From contig CAZGUZ010000001.1 in NCBI GenBank assembly GCA_964529025.1, positions 70,163-134,162 of the forward strand: 64,000 nt of DNA, in the 5' to 3' direction. This DNA is from an uncultured Candidatus Saccharibacteria bacterium (GTDB taxonomy: Bacteria > Patescibacteriota > Minisyncoccia > Phycocordibacterales > PALSA-1337). Of the stretch, positions 16,362-64,000 are shown in pieces. The position numbers and the translations under genes are program-made. Within the stretch, counting starts at the first letter, position 1. The number at the start of each line of letters is the position of its first letter. The notes below the pieces were generated by a model. That model made no database searches. It was not told where the DNA came from and was given only the letters and a program-made list of their open reading frames with translations.

Positions 16362-17417
16362 TTATAAACAACAAACTTCCCTTTCGAGAGTTATATTAAA
16401 TTCTTTGAGGCATTTTTCTTCAATTTCTTGTGCTAAAGAATAAACATCGGCAGAGCTTGATGAAATTCCCCTTTCCATAGCCAAGACGAGTGGTTGATTT
16501 TTGTACACTTCAGCATTTCCTTTGCGGTAACCATTCAAATGAAGCACCTTATCAAGAAGCCATGCCAAAGAAATCTTATACTGACCATTTTTAGATGGAT
16601 ATGCGGGCAGTCCAGGATATTGCCTTTGTAGCCTTTTCAGTTGTTCTTCAGAAATTACTGGATTTTTAAAAAATGAACCTGCTGTTCCGTAGTGATTAAG
16701 GGGTGGTAGTTTTTTGGAACGAATCTCGCAAATTGCTTTGCGAATTTCTTGCGGATGATTTGGCATATTCCCTGCGAAATAGTTTTTAACATCCGGATAT
16801 GAAATATTTGGCTGGGAATTTTTTGAAAGCTTATATATTACCGCTGTCACAATGTATGTATTTGGCCTTGCTTTAAAAATACTGTGACGATAGTCAAAGT
16901 GACAGTCTTCATTCATTAAAGTAACTATCGGTAAATCCTGCTGTATGATATCGATACACTCTACTGCAACAATAGTTGATTGCACCTCTACTCCATATGC
17001 ACCGATATTTTGAATTGCACTTGCACCGACAAGACCGGGAATTGCCGAGAGGTTTTCAAAACCCCATAGACCTTTTTCGACAGTAACCCGCACGAGATTA
17101 TCCCAGTCTTCTCCTGCCTTTGCTTTTACATATACACTACTTTCATCTTGATTTTGCTGTGCCACCTCTAAAGGAAAGTAGTCGGAGAAATTTATTCCCT
17201 TGGCACGAATCATGAGTACAACTCCATTAAAACCATCGTCATGAACTAAAGTATTTGAACCGCCTCCAATAACTGTAATTGGTAGCTTGTGGTTGCGAGC
17301 ATAATTAACACCCTCACGAATATCTGCAATAGTACTGCATTCAATAAGTGTACGAGCCTTACCCCCTACTCCAAAGGTTGTAAGCGGGCCGAGTTCTGTA
17401 TTGTGAGATATTTTCAT
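16362..17417 (-). CDS. murB: UDP-N-acetylenolpyruvoylglucosamine reductase
   Basis: 351 aa. The FAD-binding domain (TFGVGGKARTL...VIGGGSNTL) and a long-form C-terminal domain are present. Confidence 0.85.
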   Translation of the reverse strand: MKISHNTELGPLTTFGVGGKARTLIECSTIADIREGVNYARNHKLPITVIGGGSNTLVHDDGFNGVVLMIRAKGINFSDYFPLEVAQQNQDESSVYVKAKAGEDWDNLVRVTVEKGLWGFENLSAIPGLVGASAIQNIGAYGVEVQSTIVAVECIDIIQQDLPIVTLMNEDCHFDYRHSIFKARPNTYIVTAVIYKLSKNSQPNISYPDVKNYFAGNMPNHPQEIRKAICEIRSKKLPPLNHYGTAGSFFKNPVISEEQLKRLQRQYPGLPAYPSKNGQYKISLAWLLDKVLHLNGYRKGNAEVYKNQPLVLAMERGISSSSADVYSLAQEIEEKCLKEFNITLEREVCCL

Positions 17418-51521: not shown

Positions 51522-53474
51522 CTACTCTACCTTGAGCACAGACGCCAGTACCTCATGGGGAACCTCTTTTTTAGGAGCTTGCTTTTCTGGCTCGTTCTTA
51601 TGAACAGGCGCATTTTCTGGTGGTCTAAAACCTTCTTTTGGTTTCAATACTATTTTAGGCTTTGGAGATGCAGCTCGATCGGCCATTGGATCATGTTTTG
51701 AATTTTGAGTATGCTGAGAAATTTTTGCCTCATGATGATGAGCCTGCAAATTATGATTCACAGCCTTCTGTGAAATTGGCTCTTTATTTTGAGTTAAAGA
51801 ACTGAGCATATCTTTAAGCGAAGCAAAACCATCCTGAGGATTTGATTCAAGTGGCGGTCGTTGAATTTTTTCTTGTGAATGCGATTGTGGATGTGACTGC
51901 GGCTGCTGCTGTTGTCGTTGTTGCTGTTGCTGAGGCTGGTGTTGAGGTTGCTCTTGAGGTCGTGGTTGTACTTGTGGCTTTTGTTGCACCTGAACTGGAG
52001 CCGCTTGTTGTGTCGGCACTGGCGCAGTACTTACTACCGACTGAGGCTGGACTTTAGGTGACTGGTTTTGAGGTTGAGCTTGTGCCTGAGGTCGTGGCTG
52101 AGACTGTGGTTGCGCCATAGGTGGTCGTACAGCTTTTTCTGTAGGCTTTATACCTTTATTCTTTGGCTTTTTATCTTCAGAACCTGGGAGTGGCTTATGC
52201 CATTCTTCAATGAGCTGCTCTACAGAGGCGCGTGATCGAGCAAATTGCGCTCGAGAAGCAGCAATAACCTTGTCGATAGCAGAATCTTGCGGCAATTTAA
52301 TTGGCTCCATCGTCACAGCCGAAAATGGCTGCGAACTAATTCCATCGATCATGAGCTTTAAATAAATCTGTGCAAAACCAAGGTTCACCATATCTTCTGC
52401 AGTAAACTGTGGAGCAAATTCTTTTTCAAGAACTTCGGCATCGAAAGCGCCGACACGAAAAGCAACCATGGTACCAACGTTACCAAAGACAGCTGCTCGA
52501 ACCTCTTCTTCCATTTGTTCTATGTATTGGTGGGCAACGGTAAGGTTGAGTTTATACTTTCGGGCTTCTGACAAAATGTCTGCAAATGATTCATTGGCAA
52601 AGTTCTGGAATTCGTCCACAAAAAGATAGAAGTTTGGCAAAGTCTTAAGAACTCTGTCGCCCACATCGGCTCGAGACATTGCAGCAAGGTAGATTTTAGT
52701 AATGAGCATTCCACCAAGCAAATTGGCATTTGATTCGCCAATGCGACCCTTAGAAAGGTTAATGATAATAATCTTACGATTATCCATAAGAGCGCGTATA
52801 TCAAATGACGAACGCTCTTGCCCTATCATGTTTCGAATAAGAGCGTTTGCAGTAAACTGTCCGATTTTATTTTGAATTGCAGGAACAGCTTCGGCAGCCA
52901 TACGCTCGGTATAGTTTGCAAATTCATCAAGCCAGAATGATCGCACCGACGGGTCTTTTACATGCGTCAAAACTTGATCACGATACGCCTTGTCAGACAA
53001 CATACGGTTTACACCAAGGAGTGTTGCTCCGGGGAACTCGAGTAAAGCAAGGAGAGTATTCGTAAGAATGTATTCCATTCGAGCAGACCAAGCATCTTGC
53101 CAAATCTTTTTGAATGTACTCATAAGACCAGCCACTACAAGATGTCGTTTGTCCTGGTCTACCTGTTCGAGCACATTGAATGAAATAGGATACTCCATAT
53201 CGAATGGAGCAAAGTACACAACATCTTTTGCTCGTGACTCTGGAATATATTCAAGAAGAAGTTCTGCCGTTTTGCCGTGAGGGTCGATGAAAGCAAAACC
53301 TTCGCCATTCTTAATATCTTGAACAGCCATGTTTTCAAGTAAGGTCGACTTACCCATACCTGTTTTTCCAATTACGTACACATGTCGAGTACGGTCTTTG
53401 GCTTTGATACCAAAAGGCGTTCGCTTATTGCGAGAATCTGTGTACGCGAAATATGTAACACGATTTTCGTCCAT
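51522..53474 (-). CDS. VirD4/TraG/TraD-like type IV coupling-protein-family ATPase (soluble, no N-terminal TM) with long P/Q-rich disordered tail
   Basis: 650 aa. Walker A (YVIGKTGMGKST), a DPHGK motif (cf. DPKGE of VirD4), Walker B (FYLFVDEFQNF) and a TraD/TraG-type C-terminal AAA core are present. The last roughly 200 aa are low-complexity, about 60 percent P and Q (PQSQPRPQAQAQPQNQ..., QQQQQRQQQQPQSHPQSH). Confidence 0.7.
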   Translation of the reverse strand: MDENRVTYFAYTDSRNKRTPFGIKAKDRTRHVYVIGKTGMGKSTLLENMAVQDIKNGEGFAFIDPHGKTAELLLEYIPESRAKDVVYFAPFDMEYPISFNVLEQVDQDKRHLVVAGLMSTFKKIWQDAWSARMEYILTNTLLALLEFPGATLLGVNRMLSDKAYRDQVLTHVKDPSVRSFWLDEFANYTERMAAEAVPAIQNKIGQFTANALIRNMIGQERSSFDIRALMDNRKIIIINLSKGRIGESNANLLGGMLITKIYLAAMSRADVGDRVLKTLPNFYLFVDEFQNFANESFADILSEARKYKLNLTVAHQYIEQMEEEVRAAVFGNVGTMVAFRVGAFDAEVLEKEFAPQFTAEDMVNLGFAQIYLKLMIDGISSQPFSAVTMEPIKLPQDSAIDKVIAASRAQFARSRASVEQLIEEWHKPLPGSEDKKPKNKGIKPTEKAVRPPMAQPQSQPRPQAQAQPQNQSPKVQPQSVVSTAPVPTQQAAPVQVQQKPQVQPRPQEQPQHQPQQQQQRQQQQPQSHPQSHSQEKIQRPPLESNPQDGFASLKDMLSSLTQNKEPISQKAVNHNLQAHHHEAKISQHTQNSKHDPMADRAASPKPKIVLKPKEGFRPPENAPVHKNEPEKQAPKKEVPHEVLASVLKVE

Positions 53475-53890: not shown

Positions 53891-55051
53891 TTATTCCGGT
53901 AGATACGCTCCTGCTGTATAACGATTCGAAGCATTCCACACAAGCCAGCCATTCAAACCAACATCGTATGTTGCTTGAATCTGGGCTCGAATCATTTCGG
54001 GAGTATATGTCGTGCCACCAATACTAAAATCTTGTATCCATGGTCGTAATTTTTGTGGCGAGGTGCTTGCTGCAACTGCTCTCTCAACCGCTTTTGACAT
54101 TGCATACTGAATAATTTCATACGGCTTCTCTGCTGGCTTTTTATATCCATTAAAATTTGGTGGGTAGTGTGATGGGTACACCATTGGATACACATAATCA
54201 AAATAGGTTAAAGCTGGTTCAAGGAGTTGACCAATACCTAAGTCATCAGTATTCGAAGTAGTCATACCAAAAAGATCAGCAGAAAGGGGCACACCAAGAT
54301 CACCGAGGTCGTCGCGTACAAATTTAAAGTACGAAGTAAGAACTTCTGAGCGTACTCTCTTGCCCGCATAAGGATATACAATATTTGCCATATCGCCATC
54401 CGAAGGAAAACGTATATAGTCAAAATTAATTTCGCCAAAGCCTCTATCATATGATTCGCGAGCAATCATAGAAATATAGTGCCAATATGGTTCAGCTGCT
54501 GCATCAATCCAACTTACACCCTTAAAATCTTTCCAAATTTGATTATCACTCTTGCGTCGAACGGCCCACTCAGGGTGATGCGTTACCATGTATGAATCTT
54601 GGAAAATAGAGATGCGTCCAATTATATAAATATTCTTAGAATGAAGCTCATCAATGAGTGCGTCGATATCGGTTATACGATTTTCCCACGACTTAAACTC
54701 TTTAAGTTTTTCATTGCGGGGCTCGAAACTAATTTTTCCTGTATAGTCTTTAACATCAATAACAACAGCATTGATTTCGGTTTCATCAATGAGTTTAATT
54801 AATTTATTGCGTAGCTCTGGATTCCCCGCCACCCAGCTCGTCATATAAATTGCTTTTACAGATTCTGGTGTTTTTACTCGCTCTGGGCGAACTGGCTTTA
54901 TTGGTTCCGAATGTATTGCAGACTGAACTGCGCTCACAATGCCCGATGAATCAGGAACGACACGCAAAGGAAAGAAATATGAAACCGCATGAAAGACACC
55001 AATTATAACGACGAGGGCAATAATTGCTATCGATATGCGGATCGGTATCAT
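53891..55051 (-). CDS. Putative extracytoplasmic TIM-barrel glycoside hydrolase (DUF4015/GHL10-like), N-terminal TM anchor
   Basis: 386 aa. One N-terminal TM helix, then an about 340-aa domain with alternating hydrophobic beta-strands and acidic loop residues (...INFDYIRFPSDGD..., ...WIQDFSIGG...). These are reminiscent of putative glycosyl-hydrolase DUF4015 proteins. Confidence 0.45.
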   Translation of the reverse strand: MIPIRISIAIIALVVIIGVFHAVSYFFPLRVVPDSSGIVSAVQSAIHSEPIKPVRPERVKTPESVKAIYMTSWVAGNPELRNKLIKLIDETEINAVVIDVKDYTGKISFEPRNEKLKEFKSWENRITDIDALIDELHSKNIYIIGRISIFQDSYMVTHHPEWAVRRKSDNQIWKDFKGVSWIDAAAEPYWHYISMIARESYDRGFGEINFDYIRFPSDGDMANIVYPYAGKRVRSEVLTSYFKFVRDDLGDLGVPLSADLFGMTTSNTDDLGIGQLLEPALTYFDYVYPMVYPSHYPPNFNGYKKPAEKPYEIIQYAMSKAVERAVAASTSPQKLRPWIQDFSIGGTTYTPEMIRAQIQATYDVGLNGWLVWNASNRYTAGAYLPE

Positions 55052-55867: not shown

Positions 55868-56596
55868 CTACGATTTTTGAGCTGGAGACACAATAACGAC
55901 AAATTCGCCACGAGTAAGGTCGGGGTTATGAGTTAAGGCTTGAGCAACGTCATGCGGAGTGCCTTGGATAACGTTTTCAAACACCTTTGTGATTTCTTTA
56001 ACAAGAGTTATGGTCACTGGAGTCTCACCGAAGGTGAGCGCGAGCGAAGCGAGCGCTTTTTCAATGCGATGAGTTGATTCATAAAAAATACATGTGCGCT
56101 CTTTTTCAACCACCTCACTCAATATTGTTTTCCAAAGAGTTTCCCTTCCCTTCTTATGCGGAGCAAAACCAAAAAATACACTTGGAGCAGTAGGAACGCC
56201 GGCAATAGATAGAGCGGCAGTTAAAGCCGAAGCTCCAGGAATAGCTTCAATATGAACAGGTTCTAAGCCACGCCCCACCCGCTCAAGCGAATAAGAACGA
56301 ATTCGCGCCACGAGCTCTGCACCAGGATCCGAAATACCAGGAGTTCCAGCATCAGAGACAACGGCCAAATTTTTGCCTTCTTCAAGAAGATTAATTATAT
56401 GACCTACTTTTGTAGAATCACTATGTGCGTGATAGCTCAATGTTTGTGTGCCAATATTGTGGAGCGATAAAATTTTTCTTGTTTCGCGAGTATCTTCACA
56501 TAAAATAACATCCGCATTACGAAGAGTTTCGAGAGCGCGGAGAGTAATATCATTCATATTACCTATAGGAGTTGCAACAATTGAGACTCGTACCAT
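55868..56596 (-). CDS. rsmI: 16S rRNA (cytidine1402-2'-O)-methyltransferase
   Basis: 242 aa. Tetrapyrrole-methylase fold; N-terminus VSIVATPIGNMNDITLRALETLRNADVILCEDTR. Confidence 0.85.
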   Translation of the reverse strand: MVRVSIVATPIGNMNDITLRALETLRNADVILCEDTRETRKILSLHNIGTQTLSYHAHSDSTKVGHIINLLEEGKNLAVVSDAGTPGISDPGAELVARIRSYSLERVGRGLEPVHIEAIPGASALTAALSIAGVPTAPSVFFGFAPHKKGRETLWKTILSEVVEKERTCIFYESTHRIEKALASLALTFGETPVTITLVKEITKVFENVIQGTPHDVAQALTHNPDLTRGEFVVIVSPAQKS

Positions 56597-56744: not shown

Positions 56745-58085
56745 ATGAACTTTCTTTCTTTCCTCCTCGGGAAAAAGCGTGGTTATAACCCCCGCCACAA
56801 ACGCACTCATACAGTAGCGCCTTTGCCTTTAGTGTATGTTGTTAAAGATATTGAGCGAGCAGTGGGATCTTTTCCTTTTAATTACTATATCGTGACAACA
56901 AATTCTCCTTTGGCACAGATGTATAAATCTACTTATCCAGAAAAGATTTTTATTGTTCGCCCAACATCGCAAGTATTAAATACCTATACCCTACTCCAGC
57001 ACCAAGACACGCACGATGCGATTAAAGAAATTCAAAAAAAACACGGCACACAACCCGATGTTATTGTTTTTCTTAATACAGAAAGAATTCGTGCATATGC
57101 AGAATCTTGTGGACTTAAAATTGCCAATCCTTCACCTTCACAGAGTGAGAAGATTGAGCACAAAATTAGATTAGTAGAATGGCTTGGTAAAGATGTTGAT
57201 CTTTTACCAGAACATCGAGTAGGAAAACTTTCAGCACTCCAGCCTTTCAAATACCCCTTTATTTTGCAGTGGGGTCTTGGTCATACCGGAAACAATACCG
57301 AAACAATTTCAGACAGTTCGACTTTTAATGCCTATGTACAAAAATTTCCTGAGCGAGAGGCGCGCATAACACAAATCATTCATGGTCCAACGATTACGGT
57401 AAATCTTGTTACCGACAATAGAATTACTCATTGTGGTTCACCGAGCTATCAGATTACAGGACTTCGACCATGGACCGATACTGATTGGAGTACTGTTGGT
57501 AATGACTGGGCACTCGGCGCTCACCTTGTTCATCTTTATGGAGAACTACCTTTCCGAAGACTCGTTAAAAGAATTGCTGAGCGAATGTCAGACTCAGGTT
57601 GGCACGGGCTCTACGGACTCGACATCGTAATTGATACCGAAGCTCCTCCAGAGCAGCGTTTTAAGCTCATCGAAATTAATGCTCGCCAGGCAGCATCGGT
57701 CACCTTCGAGTCGGAGCTCGCCCGAAATCATCTTCGTGATATCGAACAACCAACACTCTTTGATCTTCATATCGAAGCATTGCGATCTACCGAGCCGCGC
57801 AATAGCCATAAGCCACACACGCTTGAGTTTATGCCCTACATTAAAAATGGTGCTCAGCTCGTACAAAGAATTACACGCGACCGTGCTCTTGCTCCGCACA
57901 TTCCACACCTCACCGATCATATGTATACATGGAAAATAATTTCATATGATAATAAAGAGCACCTCGAAGACATGCTCAGAGTTCAAACATACGGAAACTT
58001 TATGACCGAGCATAATAAGCTCTCACCCGAAGGTCTTGCCCTCAAAGCACTCCTTAATAAACACATTAATTCAGAAAAACTGTAG
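56745..58085 (+). CDS. ATP-grasp-fold ligase-like protein
   Basis: 446 aa. The C-terminal half has ATP-grasp hallmarks ...GLYGLDIVIDTEAPPEQRFKLIEINARQAAS... (ExN motif). There is no signal peptide. Confidence 0.55.
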   Translation: MNFLSFLLGKKRGYNPRHKRTHTVAPLPLVYVVKDIERAVGSFPFNYYIVTTNSPLAQMYKSTYPEKIFIVRPTSQVLNTYTLLQHQDTHDAIKEIQKKHGTQPDVIVFLNTERIRAYAESCGLKIANPSPSQSEKIEHKIRLVEWLGKDVDLLPEHRVGKLSALQPFKYPFILQWGLGHTGNNTETISDSSTFNAYVQKFPEREARITQIIHGPTITVNLVTDNRITHCGSPSYQITGLRPWTDTDWSTVGNDWALGAHLVHLYGELPFRRLVKRIAERMSDSGWHGLYGLDIVIDTEAPPEQRFKLIEINARQAASVTFESELARNHLRDIEQPTLFDLHIEALRSTEPRNSHKPHTLEFMPYIKNGAQLVQRITRDRALAPHIPHLTDHMYTWKIISYDNKEHLEDMLRVQTYGNFMTEHNKLSPEGLALKALLNKHINSEKL

Positions 58086-58117: not shown

Positions 58118-58909
58118 ATGAACACGCGAACCCTGAGCACAGAAGCACAGAAAGTTATTCAAGCCTACGAGCAATTTTGTCTTGGCGGCACTTGCGTTCG
58201 TGTACCCTATTTTAATAATAAAAAAGCAGGTTCACGCCGAGCACTACCGAGCCAAATCGGCAAAGGTAATCCAAAAGAAATTGAGGATGAAATTCTTCTG
58301 ACACTCAAAAAGACTCGCGAAAATGTGGGTAACCTTAACCCACAGAACCTTACCGATATTATGGTTTCTGAATCGATTGGCATTGACTGCTCAGGCTATG
58401 CACTCTATGTTCTCGATGCTGAATCTCGATCAAGGGGCAAAGGTGGCATTGATCGACATCTTTCTTTTCCTCTTGCGGGCAATATTTTTATGCGGATACT
58501 TGCGCACATTCACCCAGCAACAAATACTAATGTTGCAACATTTGCACATATAAAAAATAGTGCCGAAATTAAACTCAATGATGCTATGCCTGGCGACATC
58601 ATTACGATACTCAATACAGCGCAGAGCGAGCGTAATCACATTCTTATTGTTACTAATGTTGATTATCAAAACTTTGTACCTACAGCAATTTACTACACAC
58701 ATTCAATTGCTTGGCCAAGTGATGGAACTCATAACCACGGAATTCGCCATGGAAAAATCATCATAACTGACATTGCCCGCCCCATTACCGAACAACAGTG
58801 GCTCGAAACTCATTCAGAAAATAGCCAAACAGGTACTCCAGAAAAAAACTATACCCATGAGCGAGCAAATCAGGGTGTAACAACCCTACGCCGACTTAAC
58901 TGGTTTTAA
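58118..58909 (+). CDS. Cytoplasmic NlpC/P60-like (papain-fold) cysteine hydrolase/transferase candidate
   Basis: 263 aa. The ...SIGIDCSGYALYVLD... motif matches the NlpC/P60 catalytic-Cys block (D/N)CSG(F/L)(V/I). The downstream ...RNHILIVTNV...IYYTHSI... provides candidate His residues. No signal peptide. Confidence 0.45.
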   Translation: MNTRTLSTEAQKVIQAYEQFCLGGTCVRVPYFNNKKAGSRRALPSQIGKGNPKEIEDEILLTLKKTRENVGNLNPQNLTDIMVSESIGIDCSGYALYVLDAESRSRGKGGIDRHLSFPLAGNIFMRILAHIHPATNTNVATFAHIKNSAEIKLNDAMPGDIITILNTAQSERNHILIVTNVDYQNFVPTAIYYTHSIAWPSDGTHNHGIRHGKIIITDIARPITEQQWLETHSENSQTGTPEKNYTHERANQGVTTLRRLNWF

Positions 58910-60090: not shown

Positions 60091-60765
60091 ATGACTCAAA
60101 AATATCTTTCTTGGGGTGAAACTATAGTAGACCCACTTAATACTGCCGCAGCCGAAGAAGCCTACAATAAAGGTGCTCTTTTTACTCGAGTAGAGCCTCA
60201 AAAGATGACCTTAACTCGTAGTGTACGAGTTAACCTCAAAAAGTTTTCTTTATCGAGTGAAAATCGTCGTATCCTACGCAAGAATGAAAACATATCTTTA
60301 AGTACAACAGTACTGCCTTCAAGCTCGTATACATGGGAAATCGGAAAGCTTGCAAAAGACTTTTACGATACAAAATTTGGAAAAGATATTTTCTCAGCAA
60401 ATGCTATAAAAAAGTTGTGCACTGAGCCTCATAATTTTAATACTCTTTTTGTATATTCAGAAAATGAAAAGCCTTTGGGATATGCAATCTGCTATATGAC
60501 AAAGAACATCTTGCATTATTCATACCCCTTTTACGAGCTTAACCGAGCAGAAGCAAATATTGGCATTGGAATGATGACAAAAGCAATTGCATTCGCTCAA
60601 GAGAAAGGTCTTTCATACGTATACCTTGGTTCGCTTCAGCGTCCAACAGATACATACAAGCTTCAGTTTGAAGGAATAGAATGGTTTGACGAACACACTC
60701 AGTCGTGGAGTTCTAATCTTATTGCGGCAAAAACCCATCTTAATTCTGATATACTGCAAGCATAA
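60091..60765 (+). CDS. ATE_C/Bpt-like aminoacyl-tRNA--protein transferase family protein (GNAT-fold)
   Basis: About 225 aa from the internal ATG (MTQKYLSWGE...). The C-terminal block ...GLSYVYLGSLQRPTDTYKLQFEGIEWFD resembles the YLGYW...YK..F.P.E block of arginyl/leucyl-tRNA-protein transferases. Upstream ...RRILRKNENISL... also resembles Bpt/ATE. The track ORF starts at 59980 and overlaps mraY. Confidence 0.45.
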   Translation: MTQKYLSWGETIVDPLNTAAAEEAYNKGALFTRVEPQKMTLTRSVRVNLKKFSLSSENRRILRKNENISLSTTVLPSSSYTWEIGKLAKDFYDTKFGKDIFSANAIKKLCTEPHNFNTLFVYSENEKPLGYAICYMTKNILHYSYPFYELNRAEANIGIGMMTKAIAFAQEKGLSYVYLGSLQRPTDTYKLQFEGIEWFDEHTQSWSSNLIAAKTHLNSDILQA

Positions 60766-60771
60766 ATTTAT

Positions 60772-62253
60772 ATGTCTACTTTCTCTTTTCACGGAAAAAA
60801 TCCGAATGATATTCATATCCATGTTATTGGTATCTGTGGCGTAGCAACAGGTGCTTTGGCAGTCGCTTTTCATACACGGGGGTACATTGTAACTGGTAGC
60901 GATAAAGGATTTTGGCCACCGGTTTCAACCGAACTCGAAAAACACGGAATCAATTTTTATGCTGGCTGGCATCCCGAAAAAATGTCTCGCACCCTACCAG
61001 ATGGAAGCATAAAATACCCCGATGTTATTATTGCTGGCACAGCTTCTGGCACACAAAACCCCGAAACAGAATTAGCAAAAAAACTTGGTCTTCCTATTTA
61101 TTCTTTTGCCGAGGCTATTGGTGAATTTTTTGCAAAAGAAAATTCAATTGTCTGCGCAGGAACCTGGGGTAAAACATCTAACTCTACCCTACTATCACAT
61201 ATTCTTACCCAAGCCGATTTTGACCCAACATATATGTTTGGGGGAATTTCTTTGTCTCACAATCAGTCAGCATATTTAGGAGAAAGCAAATGGAGCGTTT
61301 TTGAAGGCGATGAATACAAAAGTTCACCGACCGACACGACACCTAAATTTGCCTATTATAAAGCAACGCATGTATTGCTTACTGCCGTAAACTGGGACCA
61401 TGCAGATCTCTATCCTACACCAGCAGATTTTAAAAAAGTGTTTCTTAAACTTGCTCATGGTATACCTCGTCATGGGGCTCTTGTAGCATGCGTCGACAAT
61501 GAAGGTGTTCGCGAAATAATTGCCGAGACTCCCGAGGTTCGCCACATTACCTATGGCAAAGCCAATACCTCATTCGAGCCAGACTATAGTTATTCCGAAG
61601 TCAAAGAAAGCGTTAATGGTATATCTTGCATCATTTCTCATGGTGATGAAGACTATTCGATAACCTCACCGATCCTTGGTTCATACCAAGTGGAAAATAT
61701 TACCGCTTGTTTTGCAATGGCACACCACCTTGGTGTAAGTGCTCAAACAATCATCAAAGCAATTGCAAGCTTTAAGGGCCTTAAGCGAAGACTTGAGCAG
61801 CGCCTACTAGCCCATGAATCACCGCATGGAGTTACTGTTATTGATGACATTGCACACTCTCCAGACAAAGCCCGAACAACTATTGCTGTACTTAAAAGAA
61901 TCTTTAATGGAAAAGTAACTGTAGTTTTTGAACCAAATATTGGCGGTCGCATTCCAGATGCACTACCAACATATGCTCATGCTTTTTCTGAAGCTGATCG
62001 TGTAATTGTTCCCCGCCTCACCAAACTTAAAACTTCAGAAGACCCTAATGCAATTGTGCCGGTTGATGGCACAGTACTTGCCGAGACGATTAAACAAACA
62101 CAACCAGACACAGACTATATTTCTGATGACGATCTTTTGGTACAAGAATTAACAAAAACAGCCCACACAGGGGATGTCATTGCTTTTCTTGGCTCACACG
62201 GCTTTAGAAAGATGATAGAAGCAACTGTTACTACTTTCCTTCATCAACAATAG
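60772..62253 (+). CDS. murC: UDP-N-acetylmuramate--L-alanine ligase (MurC/Mpl-type Mur ligase) with atypical P-loop
   Basis: 493 aa. The N-terminal MurC-type Rossmann domain (IHVIGICGVATGALAVAFHTRGYIVTGSD), the Mur ligase central domain and a C-terminal domain are present. The P-loop reads GTWGKTS instead of the canonical GTNGKTT. Confidence 0.8.
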   Translation: MSTFSFHGKNPNDIHIHVIGICGVATGALAVAFHTRGYIVTGSDKGFWPPVSTELEKHGINFYAGWHPEKMSRTLPDGSIKYPDVIIAGTASGTQNPETELAKKLGLPIYSFAEAIGEFFAKENSIVCAGTWGKTSNSTLLSHILTQADFDPTYMFGGISLSHNQSAYLGESKWSVFEGDEYKSSPTDTTPKFAYYKATHVLLTAVNWDHADLYPTPADFKKVFLKLAHGIPRHGALVACVDNEGVREIIAETPEVRHITYGKANTSFEPDYSYSEVKESVNGISCIISHGDEDYSITSPILGSYQVENITACFAMAHHLGVSAQTIIKAIASFKGLKRRLEQRLLAHESPHGVTVIDDIAHSPDKARTTIAVLKRIFNGKVTVVFEPNIGGRIPDALPTYAHAFSEADRVIVPRLTKLKTSEDPNAIVPVDGTVLAETIKQTQPDTDYISDDDLLVQELTKTAHTGDVIAFLGSHGFRKMIEATVTTFLHQQ

Positions 62254-62395
62254 AGGCATCAACACTTGTTGGTGTAATTTCATTAACTCCAAGTGTAATA
62301 CCGCACATATTACATTCAATAACATGGCCTACAGCAAGGTCTGGATATCGAGCAAGGTCAACAGGATTTTTACATTCAGGGCAAATAAGTTTCAT
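62231..62395 (-). CDS. Unannotated 54-aa zinc-ribbon micro-protein resembling amino-group carrier protein LysW/ArgW
   Basis: Manual minus-strand translation gives MKLICPECKNPVDLARYPDLAVGHVIECNMCGITLGVNEITPTSVDASIVDEGK. CPEC...CNMC is a Cys4 ribbon. The spacing and hydrophobic pattern parallel LysW (about 54 aa). The acidic C-terminus is VDEGK. It is below the ORF-track cutoff and overlaps the murC 3' end by 23 nt on the opposite strand. Confidence 0.4.
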   Translation of the reverse strand: MKLICPECKNPVDLARYPDLAVGHVIECNMCGITLGVNEITPTSVDASIVDEGK

Positions 62396-62450: not shown

Positions 62451-63335
62451 ATGATTACCCCACAGACACAATACCCAGAACTCGGCCAACAAATCGGTAT
62501 TTCTAACCTTTGGCTTAAGCGCGAAGACTTACACCCCTATAAATCACATAAGGGTCGCTCTGTGCCACATATGATAGATACGGCCATTAAATCCGGCTCA
62601 ACAGAATTTGCTATATCATCTTCAGGAAACGCAGCACTTGCAGCTGCCCTCCATCTTGAAAAAATATCTCTTGAAGGATTACATGATTCTTTGCACCTCG
62701 AGGTTTTTGTTGGCTTAAAGATTCCCCAAGAAAAGCTCTCTCGTATTAATGCAGTCAAAGAAAGACACCCTGAACTCATTACCATTACCCATACCGAACG
62801 ACCTCTCCAGGCAATGTTTCAGAGAACAGAAAACGCTCCGCACATTCATAGCCTTCGACAATCTACCGATGACACTGCCCTTATTGGATACCAAAGCCTC
62901 TGTGAAGAGCTCGATAAAATTAACAATCTTGCACACATTTTTGTACCAACATCATCGGGTACAGCAGCCCAAGCTCTTGCAGAATTTTTTAGCTCAAAGG
63001 ATGTAACAATACACATTGTGCAAACATCATCATGCCACCCTATTGCTCAGCACTTCTTTGAATATCCTCAGACCGATGAAGTATCAATAGCCGATGCAAT
63101 TGTCGACAAAACAGCGTATCGCAAAGAAAAAATTCTTAATACCCTCACCAAAAATGGCGGCACAGGGATTATCGTTAACAATGAAAAAATTTCTGGAGCT
63201 CAAGAACTCATGCGTAAATATGCAAATATTGAAGTATCGCCCAATGGAGCACTCGGTGTTGCCGGACTCATGGAAGCAACCTATACAGATTTTAACCCTC
63301 GCGGGGCTGTAGTGTGTCTTGTGTGCGGTCTATAG
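62451..63335 (+). CDS. Small PLP-dependent fold-type-II enzyme (threonine synthase / Trp-synthase-beta superfamily-like)
   Basis: 294 aa. ...NLWLKREDLHPYKSHKGRSV... is the equivalent of the SFKDRG PLP-lysine motif. ...FAISSSGNAALAAALHL... is the equivalent of the Gly-rich phosphate loop. Confidence 0.55.
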   Translation: MITPQTQYPELGQQIGISNLWLKREDLHPYKSHKGRSVPHMIDTAIKSGSTEFAISSSGNAALAAALHLEKISLEGLHDSLHLEVFVGLKIPQEKLSRINAVKERHPELITITHTERPLQAMFQRTENAPHIHSLRQSTDDTALIGYQSLCEELDKINNLAHIFVPTSSGTAAQALAEFFSSKDVTIHIVQTSSCHPIAQHFFEYPQTDEVSIADAIVDKTAYRKEKILNTLTKNGGTGIIVNNEKISGAQELMRKYANIEVSPNGALGVAGLMEATYTDFNPRGAVVCLVCGL

Positions 63336-63363: not shown

Positions 63364-64000
63364 TTATGCTTGGTATGTTTGACCATGCTTTTTAAGAAGT
63401 AATTGCACAATTTCATAGCGATCCCGGCGTGAATCGGCTTGGCCATAGTGTTCAGTCCCTGGGCTTACCACGATCTTTTGATCTTTATTACGGCAAGCAT
63501 ATGCCAGACGAATTGCATCATCAAGAGAGTCAGCAAACTCATACTGCGAGTCGGAATTCGCATAGTGCTTATGAAGACGTATATTTGAACTCCCCGGAAG
63601 AAAGATTACCTTTGAAACATAGCTTTGCAAAAAACTGAGAGCTTGGGTAGTAATATCTGACCCCTTTCCCCCTGTGACCAAAATCACCGGCGAATCTGTA
63701 GCACAGGTAACAGCAGCAGCCATAACCGAGACCATACACGTAGAATAACTATCGTTGTACGCCATTATACCCCCACCTGGCTTCTTAACCGGCTCTAAAC
63801 GCCCTTTAAGGCCCGTAAAAGGCTCTATAACCTCTCGACTTGTATCGAGCGGTATCTTGAACAGTTCAGCAACTCGGACCGCCAGAGCGATGTTTTCACG
63901 CATATGCAGGCCATCTGCGCTTAAAAGCCAATCTTGCGGAATTACCACCGTGCCCGTACGCAATATCTTTGAACGTTGCCCTTCAACATGCATTTTAAGA
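63364..64000 (-). CDS. murD: Mur ligase, C-terminal portion (MurD-like UDP-N-acetylmuramoylalanine--D-glutamate ligase); N-terminus lies beyond window end
   Basis: The C-terminal domain motifs ...FTGLKGRLEPV...YNDSYSTC...ILVTGGKGSD... match the Mur ligase C-terminal domain (cf. MurD GLPHRxE / NDSKATN / LLGGxGKG). The ORF continues past 64000. Confidence 0.6.
   Translation of the reverse strand, partial: LKMHVEGQRSKILRTGTVVIPQDWLLSADGLHMRENIALAVRVAELFKIPLDTSREVIEPFTGLKGRLEPVKKPGGGIMAYNDSYSTCMVSVMAAAVTCATDSPVILVTGGKGSDITTQALSFLQSYVSKVIFLPGSSNIRLHKHYANSDSQYEFADSLDDAIRLAYACRNKDQKIVVSPGTEHYGQADSRRDRYEIVQLLLKKHGQTYQA

What the first reader, a model, noticed from the sequence alone, without database searches (positions are those of the whole stretch)
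60091..60765. ATE/Bpt-like aminoacyl-tRNA-protein transferase gene between mraY and murC
The ...YVYLGSLQRPTDTYKLQFEGIEWFD and RRILRKNEN blocks resemble arginyl/leucyl-tRNA-protein transferases (ATE_C/Bpt, a GNAT-like fold shared with Fem peptidyltransferases). Its position inside the dcw cluster hints at a Fem-like role: aa-tRNA-dependent addition of an amino acid to a peptidoglycan precursor. An N-end-rule role is less likely. Such an arrangement has not, to my knowledge, been described.
Basis: partly seen in the sequence, partly recalled or inferred. Interest (0 to 1): 0.55.

Follow-up and report, generated by a model that had tools for sequence, protein, structure and literature searches.

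The report
tRNA-dependent transferase in cell-wall operon
A small gene between mraY and murC encodes a stripped-down relative of the arginyl/leucyl-tRNA-protein transferases, and it sits next to cell-wall precursor genes (in some organisms fused to murC) across two large groups of ultra-small CPR bacteria, so it probably uses charged tRNA to add an amino acid during peptidoglycan synthesis.

Summary
Window 60091-60765 (+) is a real 224-aa gene, between a MraY gene and a MurC-like gene. It passes the Pfam ATE_C threshold but lacks ATE_N and its Cys motif. A confident AF2 model matches ATE1 best, then MprF/A-PGS, FemX and L/F-transferase, all aminoacyl-tRNA-dependent transferases. The Tyr-Lys pair that I equate by motif with the catalytic Lys of ATE1 and FemX is invariant.

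It belongs to a Patescibacteria (CPR) family with two subfamilies.
- Parcubacteria type (80 species loci): MraY lies upstream in 72/72 and MurC downstream in 68/68 loci with room.
- Microgenomates type (55 loci): the gene sits in a canonical dcw cluster, mraZ-rsmH-ftsI-murE-X-murC-murB-murA-murF-mraY. MurE is upstream in 38/39 and MurC downstream in 32/32.
- In one 90%-identity cluster of seven sequences it is fused to MurC.

A role in peptidoglycan precursor synthesis is therefore well supported. The Fem-like branch-adding reaction is the likeliest reading but is inferred. Donor amino acid and acceptor are unknown.

Four further genes co-travel in both lineages: a LysW-like zinc-ribbon protein with a conserved C-terminal Lys, a PLP enzyme, an ATP-grasp ligase and a cytoplasmic NlpC/P60-like protein. 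I found no description in the literature searched.

The parts
60091..60765 (+). ATE_C-only (Bpt/ATE1-like) putative aminoacyl-tRNA-dependent aminoacyltransferase, 224 aa
   Evidence: Pfam ATE_C 29.5 bits, above GA 25. NCBIfam Bpt models E down to 1e-12 but 18-48 bits against cut-offs of 170-358. AF2 pLDDT 92.6; the best PDB matches are ATE1, then A-PGS/MprF, FemX and LFT. 65 synonymous against 15 non-synonymous codon differences to the orthologue.
60253..60282 (+). Basic helix SSENRRILRK (aa 55-64), candidate tRNA acceptor-stem binding helix
   Evidence: In the merged 60-sequence alignment of both subfamilies, E57 and R60 are invariant and S56, N58, R59 and K64 are at least 90% conserved. The model predicts a helix at 56-64. 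A positively charged helix is a shared feature of aa-tRNA transferases (PMC9351520). The equivalence to that helix is inferred, not superposed.
60616..60690 (+). YVYLGSLQRPTDTYKLQFEGIEWFD block (aa 176-200), containing the invariant Y189-K190
   Evidence: Y178, G180, Y189 and K190 are invariant in both subfamilies. The block lies within the stretch aligned to the end of the ATE_C profile. The Tyr/Phe-Lys pair is catalytic in K. lactis Ate1 (Y303-K304; K304A is inactive) and in FemX (F304-K305) (PMC9351520).
58940..60064 (+). MraY (phospho-MurNAc-pentapeptide transferase), immediately upstream with a 26-nt gap
   Evidence: Glycos_transf_4 E 2e-24; TIGR00445 177 bits. It is upstream of the transferase in 72/72 Parcubacteria-type loci with room.
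60772..62253 (+). MurC-like Mur ligase, immediately downstream with a 6-nt gap
   Evidence: Mur_ligase, Mur_ligase_M and Mur_ligase_C all hit. TIGR01082 murC 253 bits (cut-off 335); mpl 196 bits. It is downstream in 68/68 and 32/32 loci with room. It is fused to the transferase in the P0267 cluster.
56745..58085 (+). ATP-grasp ligase of unknown specificity, first gene of the operon
   Evidence: Weak ATP-grasp profile hits. AF2 pLDDT 88; the best PDB matches are PurK, biotin carboxylase and an L-amino-acid ligase. It co-travels in both subfamilies.
58118..58909 (+). Cytoplasmic NlpC/P60-like protein (IGIDCSGY motif), no obvious signal peptide by eye
   Evidence: Weak NLPC_P60 and Amidase_6 hits. 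It is homologous to the 233-aa gene after mraY in Microgenomates (hhalign probability 99.9, E 2e-37). Present in 55/60 and 18/18 loci with room.
62231..62395 (-). LysW-like zinc-ribbon protein, 54 aa, with conserved C-terminus ...VDEGK
   Evidence: PF21344 Zn_ribbon_LysW 28.5 bits, above GA 27. Present in 57/57 Parcubacteria-type loci with room; the last five residues are VDEGK in 61 of 69. Microgenomates homologues end in EEEK or VEEK.
62451..63335 (+). Fold-type II PLP enzyme (PALP), divergently paired with the LysW-like gene
   Evidence: PALP E 1e-30. Only weak threonine synthase and dehydratase similarity (58 bits against cut-offs above 300). Present in 57/57 loci with room.
63364..64000 (-). 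C-terminal part of a divergent MurD-like ligase, cut by the window end
   Evidence: Mur_ligase_C E 3e-4. The full-length orthologue in L001 scores TIGR01087 murD 133 bits against a cut-off of 212.

Best explanation
The gene encodes a soluble, single-domain aminoacyl-tRNA-dependent aminoacyltransferase from the ATE1/Bpt lineage. It has lost the N-terminal Cys-rich ATE_N module and has been recruited to the cytoplasmic stage of peptidoglycan precursor synthesis in CPR/Patescibacteria.

Proposed mechanism:
1. The basic SSENRRILRK helix binds the acceptor stem of a charged tRNA.
2. The 3'-aminoacyl ester enters the GNAT cleft.
3. A free amino group of a precursor attacks the ester carbonyl. The most likely acceptor is the side-chain amine of the residue-3 diamino acid installed by MurE, on a UDP-MurNAc-peptide or a lipid intermediate.
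4. The invariant Lys190, with Tyr189, stabilises the tetrahedral intermediate, as Lys304 does in ATE1 and Lys305 in FemX.
5. The product is a branched stem peptide, so the enzyme would be a functional analogue of FemX/MurM that is not related to them at the family level.

What is shown: homology, fold, conservation of the motif-equivalent catalytic pair, an operon with mraY and murC, conserved synteny across two CPR superclades, and a fusion to MurC.

What is inferred: tRNA use, the identity of the donor amino acid, the acceptor, and whether the substrate is nucleotide-linked or lipid-linked.
For: - **Family and fold.** ATE_C is above the Pfam threshold here and hits 59/60 members at E <= 0.1. 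No ATE_N, FemAB, L/F-transferase or DUF2156 hit appears in any member. Bpt models hit at E down to 1e-12. AF2 gives pLDDT 92.6 and pTM 0.90. Foldseek against the PDB puts human ATE1 first (E 2e-9, TMq 0.70), then yeast ATE1, A-PGS/MprF, FemX, LFT and Sba18. All 50 listed matches are aa-tRNA transferases.
- **Catalytic residues.** Y189-K190, R46, E57 and R60 are invariant across both subfamilies. The Tyr/Phe-Lys pair is essential in K. lactis Ate1 and in FemX (PMC9351520).
- **Context, Parcubacteria type.** MraY is upstream in 72/72 loci and MurC downstream in 68/68 loci. The same order appears in three independently sampled relatives.
- **Context, Microgenomates type.** The order is mraZ-rsmH-ftsI-murE-X-murC-murB-murA-murF-mraY. 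MurE is upstream in 38/39 and MurC downstream in 32/32. MurE there is bona fide (402 bits against a cut-off of 257). MurF scores 245 bits, just below its 288.6 cut-off. So the transferase accompanies these ligases rather than standing in for them.
- **Fusion.** P0267 is ATE_C-like, then a Pro/Ser linker, then MurC. It has seven cluster members from ENA, JGI and NCBI assemblies and sits in the murE-X-murC position.
- **Operon structure.** The gaps are 26 and 6 nt.
Against: - No biochemical evidence of any kind exists.
- The FemAB profile does not hit, and the protein has one GNAT-type domain, whereas Fem enzymes have two that form the UDP-MurNAc-peptide site (PMC12945691). How a stem peptide would be bound is therefore unknown.
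- ATE1/Bpt enzymes act on alpha-amines of N-terminal Asp or Glu, not on side-chain amines.
- The single most conserved adjacency, and the fusion, are with MurC. MurC's product has no free amine. Adjacency to MurE holds only in the Microgenomates type.
- Mur fusions often join non-sequential steps (PMC10214165), so the fusion proves a shared pathway, not a shared substrate.
- A conserved LysW-like protein with a C-terminal Lys offers an alternative acceptor.
- Half of the members also give weak hits to acetyl-CoA-type GNAT profiles.
- I could not superpose residues on ATE1 or FemX, because no coordinates are accessible and profile searches of PDB sequences do not reach ATE1.
Confidence: 0.5

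Rival explanations
1. Peptide pre-assembly for MurC. The enzyme adds an amino acid such as L-Ala from aa-tRNA onto the alpha-amine of a free acidic amino acid or short peptide, for example D-Glu. The adjacent divergent MurC-like ligase then attaches the resulting dipeptide or peptide to UDP-MurNAc, in the manner of Mpl. This would partly bypass MurD.
For: - The transferase-MurC pair is the one adjacency kept in both subfamilies, and the two are fused in some organisms.
- ATE1 and Bpt specifically recognise an amine next to an acidic group (PMC9351520).
- The MurC-like proteins score well below the murC equivalog cut-off (183-253 bits against 335) and also hit the mpl model.
- No MurD was found within +-10 kb in the Microgenomates-type loci.
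Against: - Parcubacteria-type loci do carry a MurD-like gene in the cluster.
- MurD could lie elsewhere in Microgenomates genomes; this was not testable here.
- Scores below the curated cut-offs are seen for several, though not all, CPR cell-wall proteins here (MraY 168-177 against 192; MurF 245 against 288.6; but MurE passes its cut-off).
- Mur fusions need not be sequential.
- The Arg (R33) that I guessed might correspond to the acid-binding Arg80 of Ate1 is not conserved in the sister subfamily.
Confidence: 0.15
2. Carrier-protein pathway. The acceptor is the conserved C-terminal Lys of the LysW-like zinc-ribbon protein, or an amino acid tethered to it. The transferase, the PLP enzyme, the ATP-grasp ligase and the NlpC/P60-like hydrolase together load, modify and release a non-standard amino acid or branch that is then built into peptidoglycan.
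For: - The LysW-like gene passes the Pfam threshold.
- It co-travels with the transferase in 57/57 Parcubacteria-type loci and 15/18 Microgenomates-type loci with room.
- Its C-terminus is strongly conserved (VDEGK in 61/69; EEEK or VEEK in the other lineage). This is the hallmark of carrier proteins used through their tail.
- ATE-family enzymes normally act on proteins.
- The same five accessory genes recur in a different order in two deeply separated lineages.
Against: - The ATP-grasp enzyme resembles PurK, biotin carboxylase and L-amino-acid ligases, not LysX/RimK.
- LysW carriers use a C-terminal Glu, not a Lys (my own knowledge).
- Three outlying loci (L091, L092, L095) have the transferase but no LysW-like gene within 8-10 kb.
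- The LysW-like gene is paired with the PLP gene, not with the transferase.
Confidence: 0.15
3. Acyl-CoA-dependent GNAT. The protein acetylates or acylates an amine of a cell-wall precursor and does not use tRNA.
For: Weaker hits to Acetyltransf_6 (30/60 members), Acetyltransf_1 (17/60) and related profiles at E <= 0.1. NCBI names one member 'GNAT family N-acetyltransferase'.
Against: - ATE_C is the best and most consistent hit (59/60).
- All top structural matches are aa-tRNA transferases.
- The catalytic Tyr-Lys pair and the basic helix typical of tRNA users are invariant.
- The second Gly of the CoA-pyrophosphate loop motif is not conserved.
Confidence: 0.07
4. Ordinary N-degron enzyme. The protein is a Bpt-type leucyl- or arginyl-transferase that marks proteins with N-terminal Asp or Glu for ClpS/ClpAP degradation. 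Its location would be coincidental.
For: Sequence and fold are closest to Bpt and ATE1. JGI annotates members as arginyl-tRNA-protein transferase.
Against: - ATE_N and its Cys motif are absent in 60/60 members; the window protein has no Cys in its first 100 residues.
- Scores are 18-48 bits against equivalog cut-offs of 170-358.
- Near-universal linkage to mraY, murC and murE in 135 loci from two lineages, plus a fusion to MurC.
Confidence: 0.03
5. Aminoacyl-lipid synthase. Like the catalytic domain of MprF/aaPGS, the protein aminoacylates a membrane lipid or the undecaprenyl carrier rather than the peptide.
For: A-PGS, L-PGS and MprF are among the top structural matches (E about 2e-7). The gene is next to the membrane enzyme MraY.
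Against: TMq is only 0.43-0.48 against 0.70 for ATE1. There is no DUF2156 hit and no membrane domain. The linkage is to the soluble Mur ligases as much as to MraY.
Confidence: 0.03

Closest known systems
Bpt (bacterial leucyl-tRNA-protein transferase) and eukaryotic ATE1 (arginyl-tRNA-protein transferase); Pfam ATE_N + ATE_C
   Same: - The only protein family detected by sequence (ATE_C above threshold; Bpt models E down to 1e-12).
- The best structural match (ATE1 TMq 0.70).
- A conserved Tyr-Lys catalytic pair, a basic helix and the YxYLG motif.
- Similar size to Bpt.
   Different: - It lacks ATE_N and the four-Cys metal site.
- It scores far below the Bpt equivalog cut-offs.
- Profile searches do not reach ATE1 sequences in the PDB.
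- The genomic context is peptidoglycan synthesis, not proteolysis.
- The family is confined, as far as seen, to CPR/Patescibacteria.
FemX (Weissella viridescens), FemXAB (S. aureus) and MurM/MurN; the FemABX family (PF02388)
   Same: - The proposed reaction type: an aa-tRNA donor and an amine of a peptidoglycan precursor as acceptor.
- GNAT-type catalytic domain, catalytic Lys preceded by an aromatic residue, and a basic tRNA-binding helix.
- Structural match at E about 4e-7.
   Different: - No PF02388 hit in 60/60 members.
- One GNAT-type domain of 224 aa instead of two plus a coiled coil, so the Fem-type UDP-MurNAc-peptide site between the domains cannot exist.
- TMq is only about 0.47-0.50.
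- It would be an analogue, not a family member.
Leucyl/phenylalanyl-tRNA-protein transferase (Aat, LFT)
   Same: A small soluble single-GNAT aa-tRNA transferase. It is a structural match (2cxa, E 1.6e-6).
   Different: No sequence-profile hit. TMq 0.46. It has a different catalytic arrangement (my own knowledge). Its role is in the N-degron pathway.
Aminoacyl-phosphatidylglycerol synthases (MprF, A-PGS, L-PGS catalytic domain)
   Same: An aa-tRNA-dependent GNAT-type transferase that acts on an envelope component. It is a structural match at E about 2e-7.
   Different: The acceptor is a lipid hydroxyl. It is attached to a large membrane domain. There is no DUF2156 hit here.
Natural-product aa-tRNA transferases (Sba18/Sbb17/Orf11 of streptothricin-type pathways, PacB, VlmA, DhpH-C)
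   Same: aa-tRNA-dependent amide formation on a small-molecule amine. Sba18 and Sbb17 appear among the structural matches (9wqy, 9wqx).
   Different: These are Fem-like double-GNAT enzymes (PMC12945691). Their context is secondary metabolism.
LysW/LysX amino-group carrier protein system (for the co-travelling zinc-ribbon gene)
   Same: A zinc-ribbon of about 54 aa that passes the Pfam LysW threshold. It has an acidic, conserved C-terminal tail and is encoded beside an ATP-grasp enzyme.
   Different: The tail ends in Lys (DEGK or EEEK), not Glu. The ATP-grasp enzyme is not LysX/RimK-like by fold. The partners are a PLP enzyme, an NlpC/P60-like protein and Mur enzymes.

Membership tests
ATE1/Bpt aminoacyl-tRNA-protein transferases | ATE_C (PF04377) GNAT-type catalytic domain | tested here: met
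   29.5 bits against GA 25, E 1.3e-6, aa 117-197. 59 of 60 members of both subfamilies hit at E <= 0.1.
ATE1/Bpt aminoacyl-tRNA-protein transferases | ATE_N (PF04376) domain with four conserved Cys that bind Zn or Fe-S | tested here: not met
   No ATE_N hit at E <= 1 in the window protein and none at E <= 0.1 in 60 members. The window protein has no Cys in its first 100 residues. Bpt models align only from about model position 57 onward.
ATE1/Bpt aminoacyl-tRNA-protein transferases | Score above the curated NCBIfam arginyltransferase (Bpt) equivalog cut-offs | tested here: not met
   Best score 47.8 bits against a cut-off of 170. The others score 18-44 bits against 205-358.
ATE1/Bpt aminoacyl-tRNA-protein transferases | Overall fold like the solved ATE1 structures | tested here: met
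   Foldseek top hits are 8tzv_A (E 2.2e-9, TMq 0.70), 8e3s, 7tif, 8j6v and 7wg2, using a model with pLDDT 92.6.
ATE1/Bpt aminoacyl-tRNA-protein transferases | Catalytic Lys preceded by Tyr (K. lactis Ate1 Y303-K304) | tested here: inconclusive
   Y189-K190 are invariant in both subfamilies and lie in the stretch aligned to the end of ATE_C. Residue-level equivalence was not confirmed by superposition.
ATE1/Bpt aminoacyl-tRNA-protein transferases | Acts on N-terminal Asp or Glu of proteins, feeding a ClpS/ClpAP or Arg/N-degron pathway | not testable with these tools
   This needs biochemistry and whole-genome content (ClpS, ClpA). The context argues against it.
FemABX peptidyltransferases | FemAB profile (PF02388) | tested here: not met
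   No hit at E <= 1. None in 60 members at E <= 0.1.
FemABX peptidyltransferases | Two GNAT domains forming the UDP-MurNAc-peptide site (PMC12945691) | tested here: not met
   The protein is 224 aa, and its model shows one compact domain that aligns to ATE1 over its whole length. FemX aligns over only about 150 columns at low rmsd.
FemABX peptidyltransferases | Encoded with, and acting on, peptidoglycan precursor synthesis | tested here: inconclusive
   Genomic linkage to mraY, murC and murE is strong, and a fusion to MurC exists. Activity on precursors was not tested.
L/F-transferase (Aat) | Leu_Phe_trans profile (PF03588) | tested here: not met
   No hit. Structural similarity only, TMq 0.46.
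Aminoacyl-phosphatidylglycerol synthase (MprF) | DUF2156/LPG_synthase_C profile and a membrane flippase domain | tested here: not met
   No hit. The protein is short and, from reading its sequence, appears to have no hydrophobic segment.
LysW-type carrier proteins (for ORF 62231-62395) | Zn_ribbon_LysW profile (PF21344) | tested here: met
   28.5 bits against GA 27 for the window ORF. 44.4 bits for the Microgenomates homologue.
LysW-type carrier proteins (for ORF 62231-62395) | C-terminal Glu used as attachment point, with a cognate LysX/RimK-type ATP-grasp ligase | tested here: not met
   The C-terminus is Lys (VDEGK, EEEK). The neighbouring ATP-grasp enzyme matches PurK, biotin carboxylase and L-amino-acid ligase folds, and LysX/RimK is not among the 50 matches listed.

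The most novel reading that the evidence does not exclude
CPR bacteria build or tailor part of their peptidoglycan stem peptide on a small LysW-like carrier protein. Under this reading:
1. The ATE_C-only transferase loads an amino acid from aa-tRNA onto the carrier's conserved C-terminal Lys, or onto a residue tethered there.
2. The PLP enzyme and the ATP-grasp ligase modify or extend it.
3. The NlpC/P60-like enzyme releases it or transfers it to the Mur pathway.

This would be the first carrier-protein-dependent and tRNA-dependent route feeding the core of cell-wall synthesis, and it would be conserved across Parcubacteria and Microgenomates.
Probability: 0.15. Interest if true: 0.85.

Novelty: new variant of a known kind. 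Interest (0 to 1): 0.66.

Why it matters
aa-tRNA-dependent decoration of peptidoglycan is so far known only from FemABX/MurM enzymes, mostly in Firmicutes and Actinobacteria. The ATE1/Bpt lineage is known only as a protein N-terminal tagging system.

If this family works as proposed, a second and unrelated transferase lineage was recruited to cell-wall synthesis. It would be a conserved feature of the dcw region in a large part of the CPR, a radiation whose wall chemistry has hardly been studied experimentally (my own knowledge).

The idea is directly testable, because the protein is small, soluble and predicted with high confidence. It would predict branched or otherwise unusual muropeptides in these episymbionts. 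It would also correct current annotations, which range from 'arginyl-tRNA-protein transferase' and 'GNAT N-acetyltransferase' to 'hypothetical'.

The co-travelling five-gene set points to further unexplored wall biochemistry: the transferase, a LysW-like protein, a PLP enzyme, an ATP-grasp ligase and an NlpC/P60-like protein.

Tried and rejected
- **Residue-level mapping.** Profile searches of PDB sequences with the family alignments (A1, A4) found only generic GNATs and not ATE1. Model coordinates are not exposed. I therefore could not map residues onto the ATE1 or FemX active sites, nor predict the donor amino acid from the pocket.
- **ATP-grasp neighbour.** I modelled it (pLDDT 88) hoping to see a Ddl- or LysX-like fold. 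It matches PurK, biotin carboxylase and L-amino-acid ligase generically, which is uninformative about specificity.
- **Failed locus search.** The search for related loci with the broad sister alignment A3 failed for lack of a conserved stretch. A narrower alignment, A5, worked.
- **Promoter and terminator scan.** Nothing above the shuffled expectation.
- **tRNA genes.** None in the window, so there is no dedicated tRNA clue.
- **Replacement of MurE or MurF.** I considered that the transferase might stand in for a missing MurE or MurF. I rejected this for the Microgenomates type, where both are in the same cluster.
- **R33 as the acid-binding Arg.** I considered R33 as the counterpart of Arg80 of Ate1. 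I dropped this because R33 is not conserved in the sister subfamily.
- **Literature.** Eight full-text searches and four papers read found no description of this arrangement.
Full report
**1.
Window 60091-60765 (+) is an ORF of 224 codons that starts at an ATG 26 nt after the mraY stop and ends 6 nt before the murC-like start. The longer TTG-initiated ORF from 59980 overlaps mraY and is not the true start, since all homologues begin at the position of the ATG.

The flanking genes are as described. MraY hits Glycos_transf_4 at E 2e-24 and scores 177 bits on TIGR00445. The downstream protein is MurC-like, with all three Mur ligase domains and 253 bits on TIGR01082. Comparison with a 93%-identical orthologue shows 65 synonymous and 15 non-synonymous codon differences, so the gene is under purifying selection. 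The window has 40% G+C and no tRNA genes.

**2. What the protein is.**
- Pfam ATE_C scores above its gathering threshold (29.5 bits against 25). The other hits are sub-threshold GNAT profiles or chance-level matches to unrelated families. ATE_N, FemAB, L/F-transferase and DUF2156 do not hit.
- Seven NCBIfam arginyltransferase (Bpt) models hit at E from 1e-12 to 2e-3, but with 18-48 bits against cut-offs of 170-358. They align only from about model position 57.
- The Cys-rich N-terminal module that binds Zn or Fe-S in ATE1 (PMC9351520) is missing. The window protein has no Cys in its first 100 residues.
- An AlphaFold2 model built on 34 homologues is confident (pLDDT 92.6, pTM 0.90).
- Foldseek against the PDB ranks human ATE1 first (E 2.2e-9, TMq 0.70). 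Yeast and K. lactis ATE1 follow, then A-PGS/MprF, W. viridescens FemX, E. coli L/F-transferase and the streptothricin-type enzymes Sba18 and Sbb17. Every one of the 50 listed matches is an aminoacyl-tRNA-dependent transferase.
- Across 60 members of the two subfamilies, ATE_C hits 59, and ATE_N and FemAB hit none.
- Invariant residues include R46, E57 and R60 (in or next to the predicted basic helix SSENRRILRK), Y178, G180 and the pair Y189-K190.
- In K. lactis Ate1 the equivalent-looking Y303-K304 pair is catalytic (K304A is dead). It corresponds to F304-K305 of FemX. A positively charged helix is common to all tRNA-using GNAT transferases (PMC9351520; PMC12945691). I could not verify these equivalences by superposition.

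**3. The family.**
- The window protein has 1,479 homologous 90%-identity clusters. Where they carry names, these come from Patescibacteria: Parcubacteria/Paceibacterota, Magasanikbacteria and Taylorbacteria.
- A profile search of 1.84 billion representatives found only 571 proteins at E <= 1e-3. The family is therefore a distinct, modest-sized clade and not part of the large Bpt/ATE1 population.
- Lower-scoring hits form a sister subfamily of about 262 aa with a different N-terminus. It has 2,299 clusters, and named members come from Microgenomates, Shapirobacteria and Dojkabacteria.

**4. Context, Parcubacteria type.**
Three diverse relatives show the same order as the window. In 80 species-level genome loci, counting only loci whose contig reaches far enough:

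| Gene | Position relative to the transferase | Loci with the gene / loci with room |
|---|---|---|
| MraY | directly upstream | 72/72 |
| MurC-like | downstream | 68/68 |
| PLP enzyme (PALP) | further downstream | 57/57 |
| 54-aa zinc-ribbon ORF | further downstream | 57/57 |
| NlpC/P60-like | upstream of mraY | 55/60 |
| ATP-grasp | upstream of mraY | 54/60 |
| Divergent MurD-like | opposite strand | about half (28/57) |

In the window itself the rest of the sequence holds murB (16362-17417), secA, housekeeping genes and a 28-kb glycosyltransferase/methyltransferase cluster. No mraZ, ftsI, ftsW, murG, murE, murF or ftsZ was found. 'Inside the dcw cluster' is therefore not literally true here.

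**5. Context, Microgenomates type.**
Here the gene does sit in a textbook dcw cluster: mraZ-rsmH-(ftsL)-ftsI-murE-X-murC-murB-murA-murF-mraY. In 55 metagenome loci:

| Gene | Loci with the gene / loci with room |
|---|---|
| MurE directly upstream | 38/39 |
| MurC directly downstream | 32/32 |
| MurF | 18/18 |
| MraY | 18/18 |
| NlpC/P60-like homologue | 18/18 |
| MraZ | 26/28 |
| RsmH | 25/28 |
| FtsI | 28/28 |

- MurE there is bona fide (402 bits against a cut-off of 257). MurF scores 245 bits, just below its 288.6 cut-off. The transferase therefore accompanies these ligases rather than replacing them.
- No MurD was seen within +-10 kb.
- Two outlying lineages keep the link: murE-X in a Dojkabacteria contig, and X-murC next to a Peptidase_M15 gene, a beta-lactamase-family gene and murA in another.

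**6. Fusions.**
- P0267 (645 aa) is the transferase domain, a Pro/Ser-rich linker and a MurC-like ligase.
- Its 90%-identity cluster has seven members from ENA, JGI and NCBI assemblies, on contigs up to 234 kb.
- It occupies exactly the murE-X-murC position.
- A published survey of Mur chimeras lists MurE-MurF, MurC-Ddl, MurC-MurB, MurG-MurC, MurD-FtsW and MraY-MurG, but nothing like this. That survey excluded sequences from unidentified species. It also notes that fused Mur enzymes are often non-sequential (PMC10214165).
- A single protein (P0263) joins the transferase domain to a PPDK_N/PEP-utilizer module.

**7. The co-travelling genes.**
- **Zinc-ribbon ORF (window 62231-62395, minus strand).** It passes the Pfam LysW threshold (28.5 bits against 27; the Microgenomates homologue scores 44.4). 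Its tail is strikingly conserved: VDEGK in 61 of 69 Parcubacteria-type sequences, and EEEK or VEEK in Microgenomates. It is divergently paired with the PLP gene in both lineages.
- **The 233-aa gene after mraY in Microgenomates.** It is homologous to the window's NlpC/P60-like gene (hhalign probability 99.9, E 2e-37). Both share the (I/V)DCSG(F/Y) Cys motif.
- **The ATP-grasp enzyme.** It follows the PLP gene in Microgenomates. By fold it is a generic PurK, biotin-carboxylase or L-amino-acid-ligase type.

The same five accessory genes (transferase, LysW-like, PLP, ATP-grasp, NlpC/P60-like) thus recur with Mur/MraY genes in two deeply diverged lineages despite rearrangement. This argues for a shared function in wall-precursor synthesis.

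**8. Mechanism.**
What is shown: an ATE/Bpt-derived, ATE_C-only enzyme with the fold and the motif-equivalent catalytic pair of tRNA-dependent aminoacyl transferases, co-operonic and sometimes fused with peptidoglycan precursor enzymes.

What I infer as most likely is a Fem-like reaction. The aminoacyl group would pass from aa-tRNA to a free amine of the stem peptide, most plausibly the side chain of the residue installed by MurE, giving a branched precursor. I put about 0.75 on 'aa-tRNA transferase working in peptidoglycan precursor synthesis'. I put about 0.45-0.5 on the specific Fem-like acceptor. The reported confidence of 0.5 is for the specific statement.

Two alternatives fit the context nearly as well:
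- The enzyme makes an aminoacyl-Glu or aminoacyl-peptide that the adjacent, divergent MurC-like ligase then couples to UDP-MurNAc.
- The enzyme acts on the C-terminal Lys of the LysW-like protein, as part of a carrier-based pathway.

A conventional N-degron role, acyl-CoA use and lipid aminoacylation are each unlikely, for the reasons listed under rivals.

**9. Comparison with known systems and novelty.**
- **By descent.** The protein is a divergent offshoot of the ATE1/Bpt family. It fails two defining features: ATE_N with its Cys motif, and the equivalog scores.
- **By proposed function.** It resembles FemX/MurM but fails Fem membership, having no PF02388 hit and a single domain.
- **In the literature.** Eight full-text searches, a 2026 review of aa-tRNA-dependent enzymes and the Mur-chimera survey gave no description of an ATE-like gene in Mur/dcw clusters, nor of a LysW-like protein in cell-wall loci.
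- **In public annotation.** Members are variously called arginyl-tRNA-protein transferase, GNAT N-acetyltransferase or hypothetical protein.

I rate it a new variant of a known kind: tRNA-dependent tailoring of peptidoglycan precursors by a different enzyme lineage. Interest is 0.66, limited by the absence of any functional data and by the unresolved acceptor and donor.

Noticed in passing
window 62231-62395 (-); homologues at L001 8240-8434, L004 10147-10311, L007 9670-9864, L090 16115-16273: A 54-aa LysW-like zinc-ribbon ORF lies between murC and the PLP gene. It is too short for the default ORF list. It passes the Pfam Zn_ribbon_LysW threshold. Its C-terminus is near-invariant: VDEGK in the Parcubacteria type, EEEK or VEEK in the Microgenomates type. 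This suggests a carrier-type protein used through its tail, but one ending in Lys rather than the Glu of LysW.
   Followed up: partly
window 62451-63335 (+): A fold-type II PLP enzyme with only weak threonine-synthase or dehydratase similarity is always divergently paired with the LysW-like gene. In Microgenomates it is followed by the ATP-grasp gene. It could be a racemase or a beta-replacement enzyme that makes a non-standard wall amino acid.
   Followed up: partly
window 58118-58909 (+); L124 16428-17228: A cytoplasmic NlpC/P60-like protein with no obvious signal peptide and an (I/V)DCSG(F/Y) motif is conserved next to mraY in both CPR lineages (hhalign probability 99.9 between the two versions). 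A papain-fold hydrolase or transferase inside the cytoplasmic precursor operon is unusual.
   Followed up: partly
window 56745-58085 (+): The ATP-grasp enzyme that heads the operon has a PurK, biotin-carboxylase or L-amino-acid-ligase-like fold. It gives no Ddl or LysX signal. No canonical ddl was seen in any locus, so it might be the D-Ala-D-Ala-type ligase or a branch ligase.
   Followed up: partly
P0267 (L093 8529-10466; L094 4075-6012): A natural fusion of the ATE_C-like domain to a MurC-like ligase through a Pro/Ser linker. Its cluster has seven members from independent assemblies.
   Followed up: yes
P0263 (L095 10001-12430): A single 809-aa protein fuses the ATE_C-like domain to PPDK_N and a PEP-utilizer mobile domain (a PEP-synthase or rifampicin-phosphotransferase-like module). 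A MurE-like gene lies 5.6 kb upstream. Its meaning is unknown.
   Followed up: no
L096-L150 (Microgenomates-type loci): No MurD homologue lies within +-10 kb of the otherwise complete murE-X-murC-murB-murA-murF-mraY cluster. ftsW, murG and ddl, which were not among the tblastn queries, also do not appear in the gene tables or large-ORF lists I inspected for a few of these loci (L090, L093, L114, L116, L124).
   Followed up: partly
L004/L005/L006 6652-7134: In one Parcubacteria lineage a small conventional GNAT acetyltransferase (160 aa, RimI-like) is inserted between the transferase and murC.
   Followed up: no
window 23355-51512: A block of about 28 kb, mostly on the minus strand, looks like a large surface-polysaccharide locus. 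It holds glycosyltransferases (GT1, GT2, GT4, GT9, GT47-like), many SAM methyltransferases, an asparagine synthase, a Wzy-like O-antigen ligase with TPR repeats, a flippase and YfhO-like membrane proteins.
   Followed up: partly
window 51522-53474 (-): A 650-aa protein with a Walker A motif (GKTGMGKST) and a C-terminal tail of about 200 aa that is extremely rich in Gln and Pro. It was not analysed. A homologue recurs upstream in about 26 related loci.
   Followed up: no
window 16362-17417 (-): murB lies 40 kb away from the mraY/murC operon in this organism. In Microgenomates it sits inside the cluster.
   Followed up: no
window 53891-55051 (-) and 55868-56596 (-): A DUF4015 protein and a TP_methylase (RsmI-like) gene are conserved just upstream of the operon, on the opposite strand, in many Parcubacteria-type loci.
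   Followed up: no
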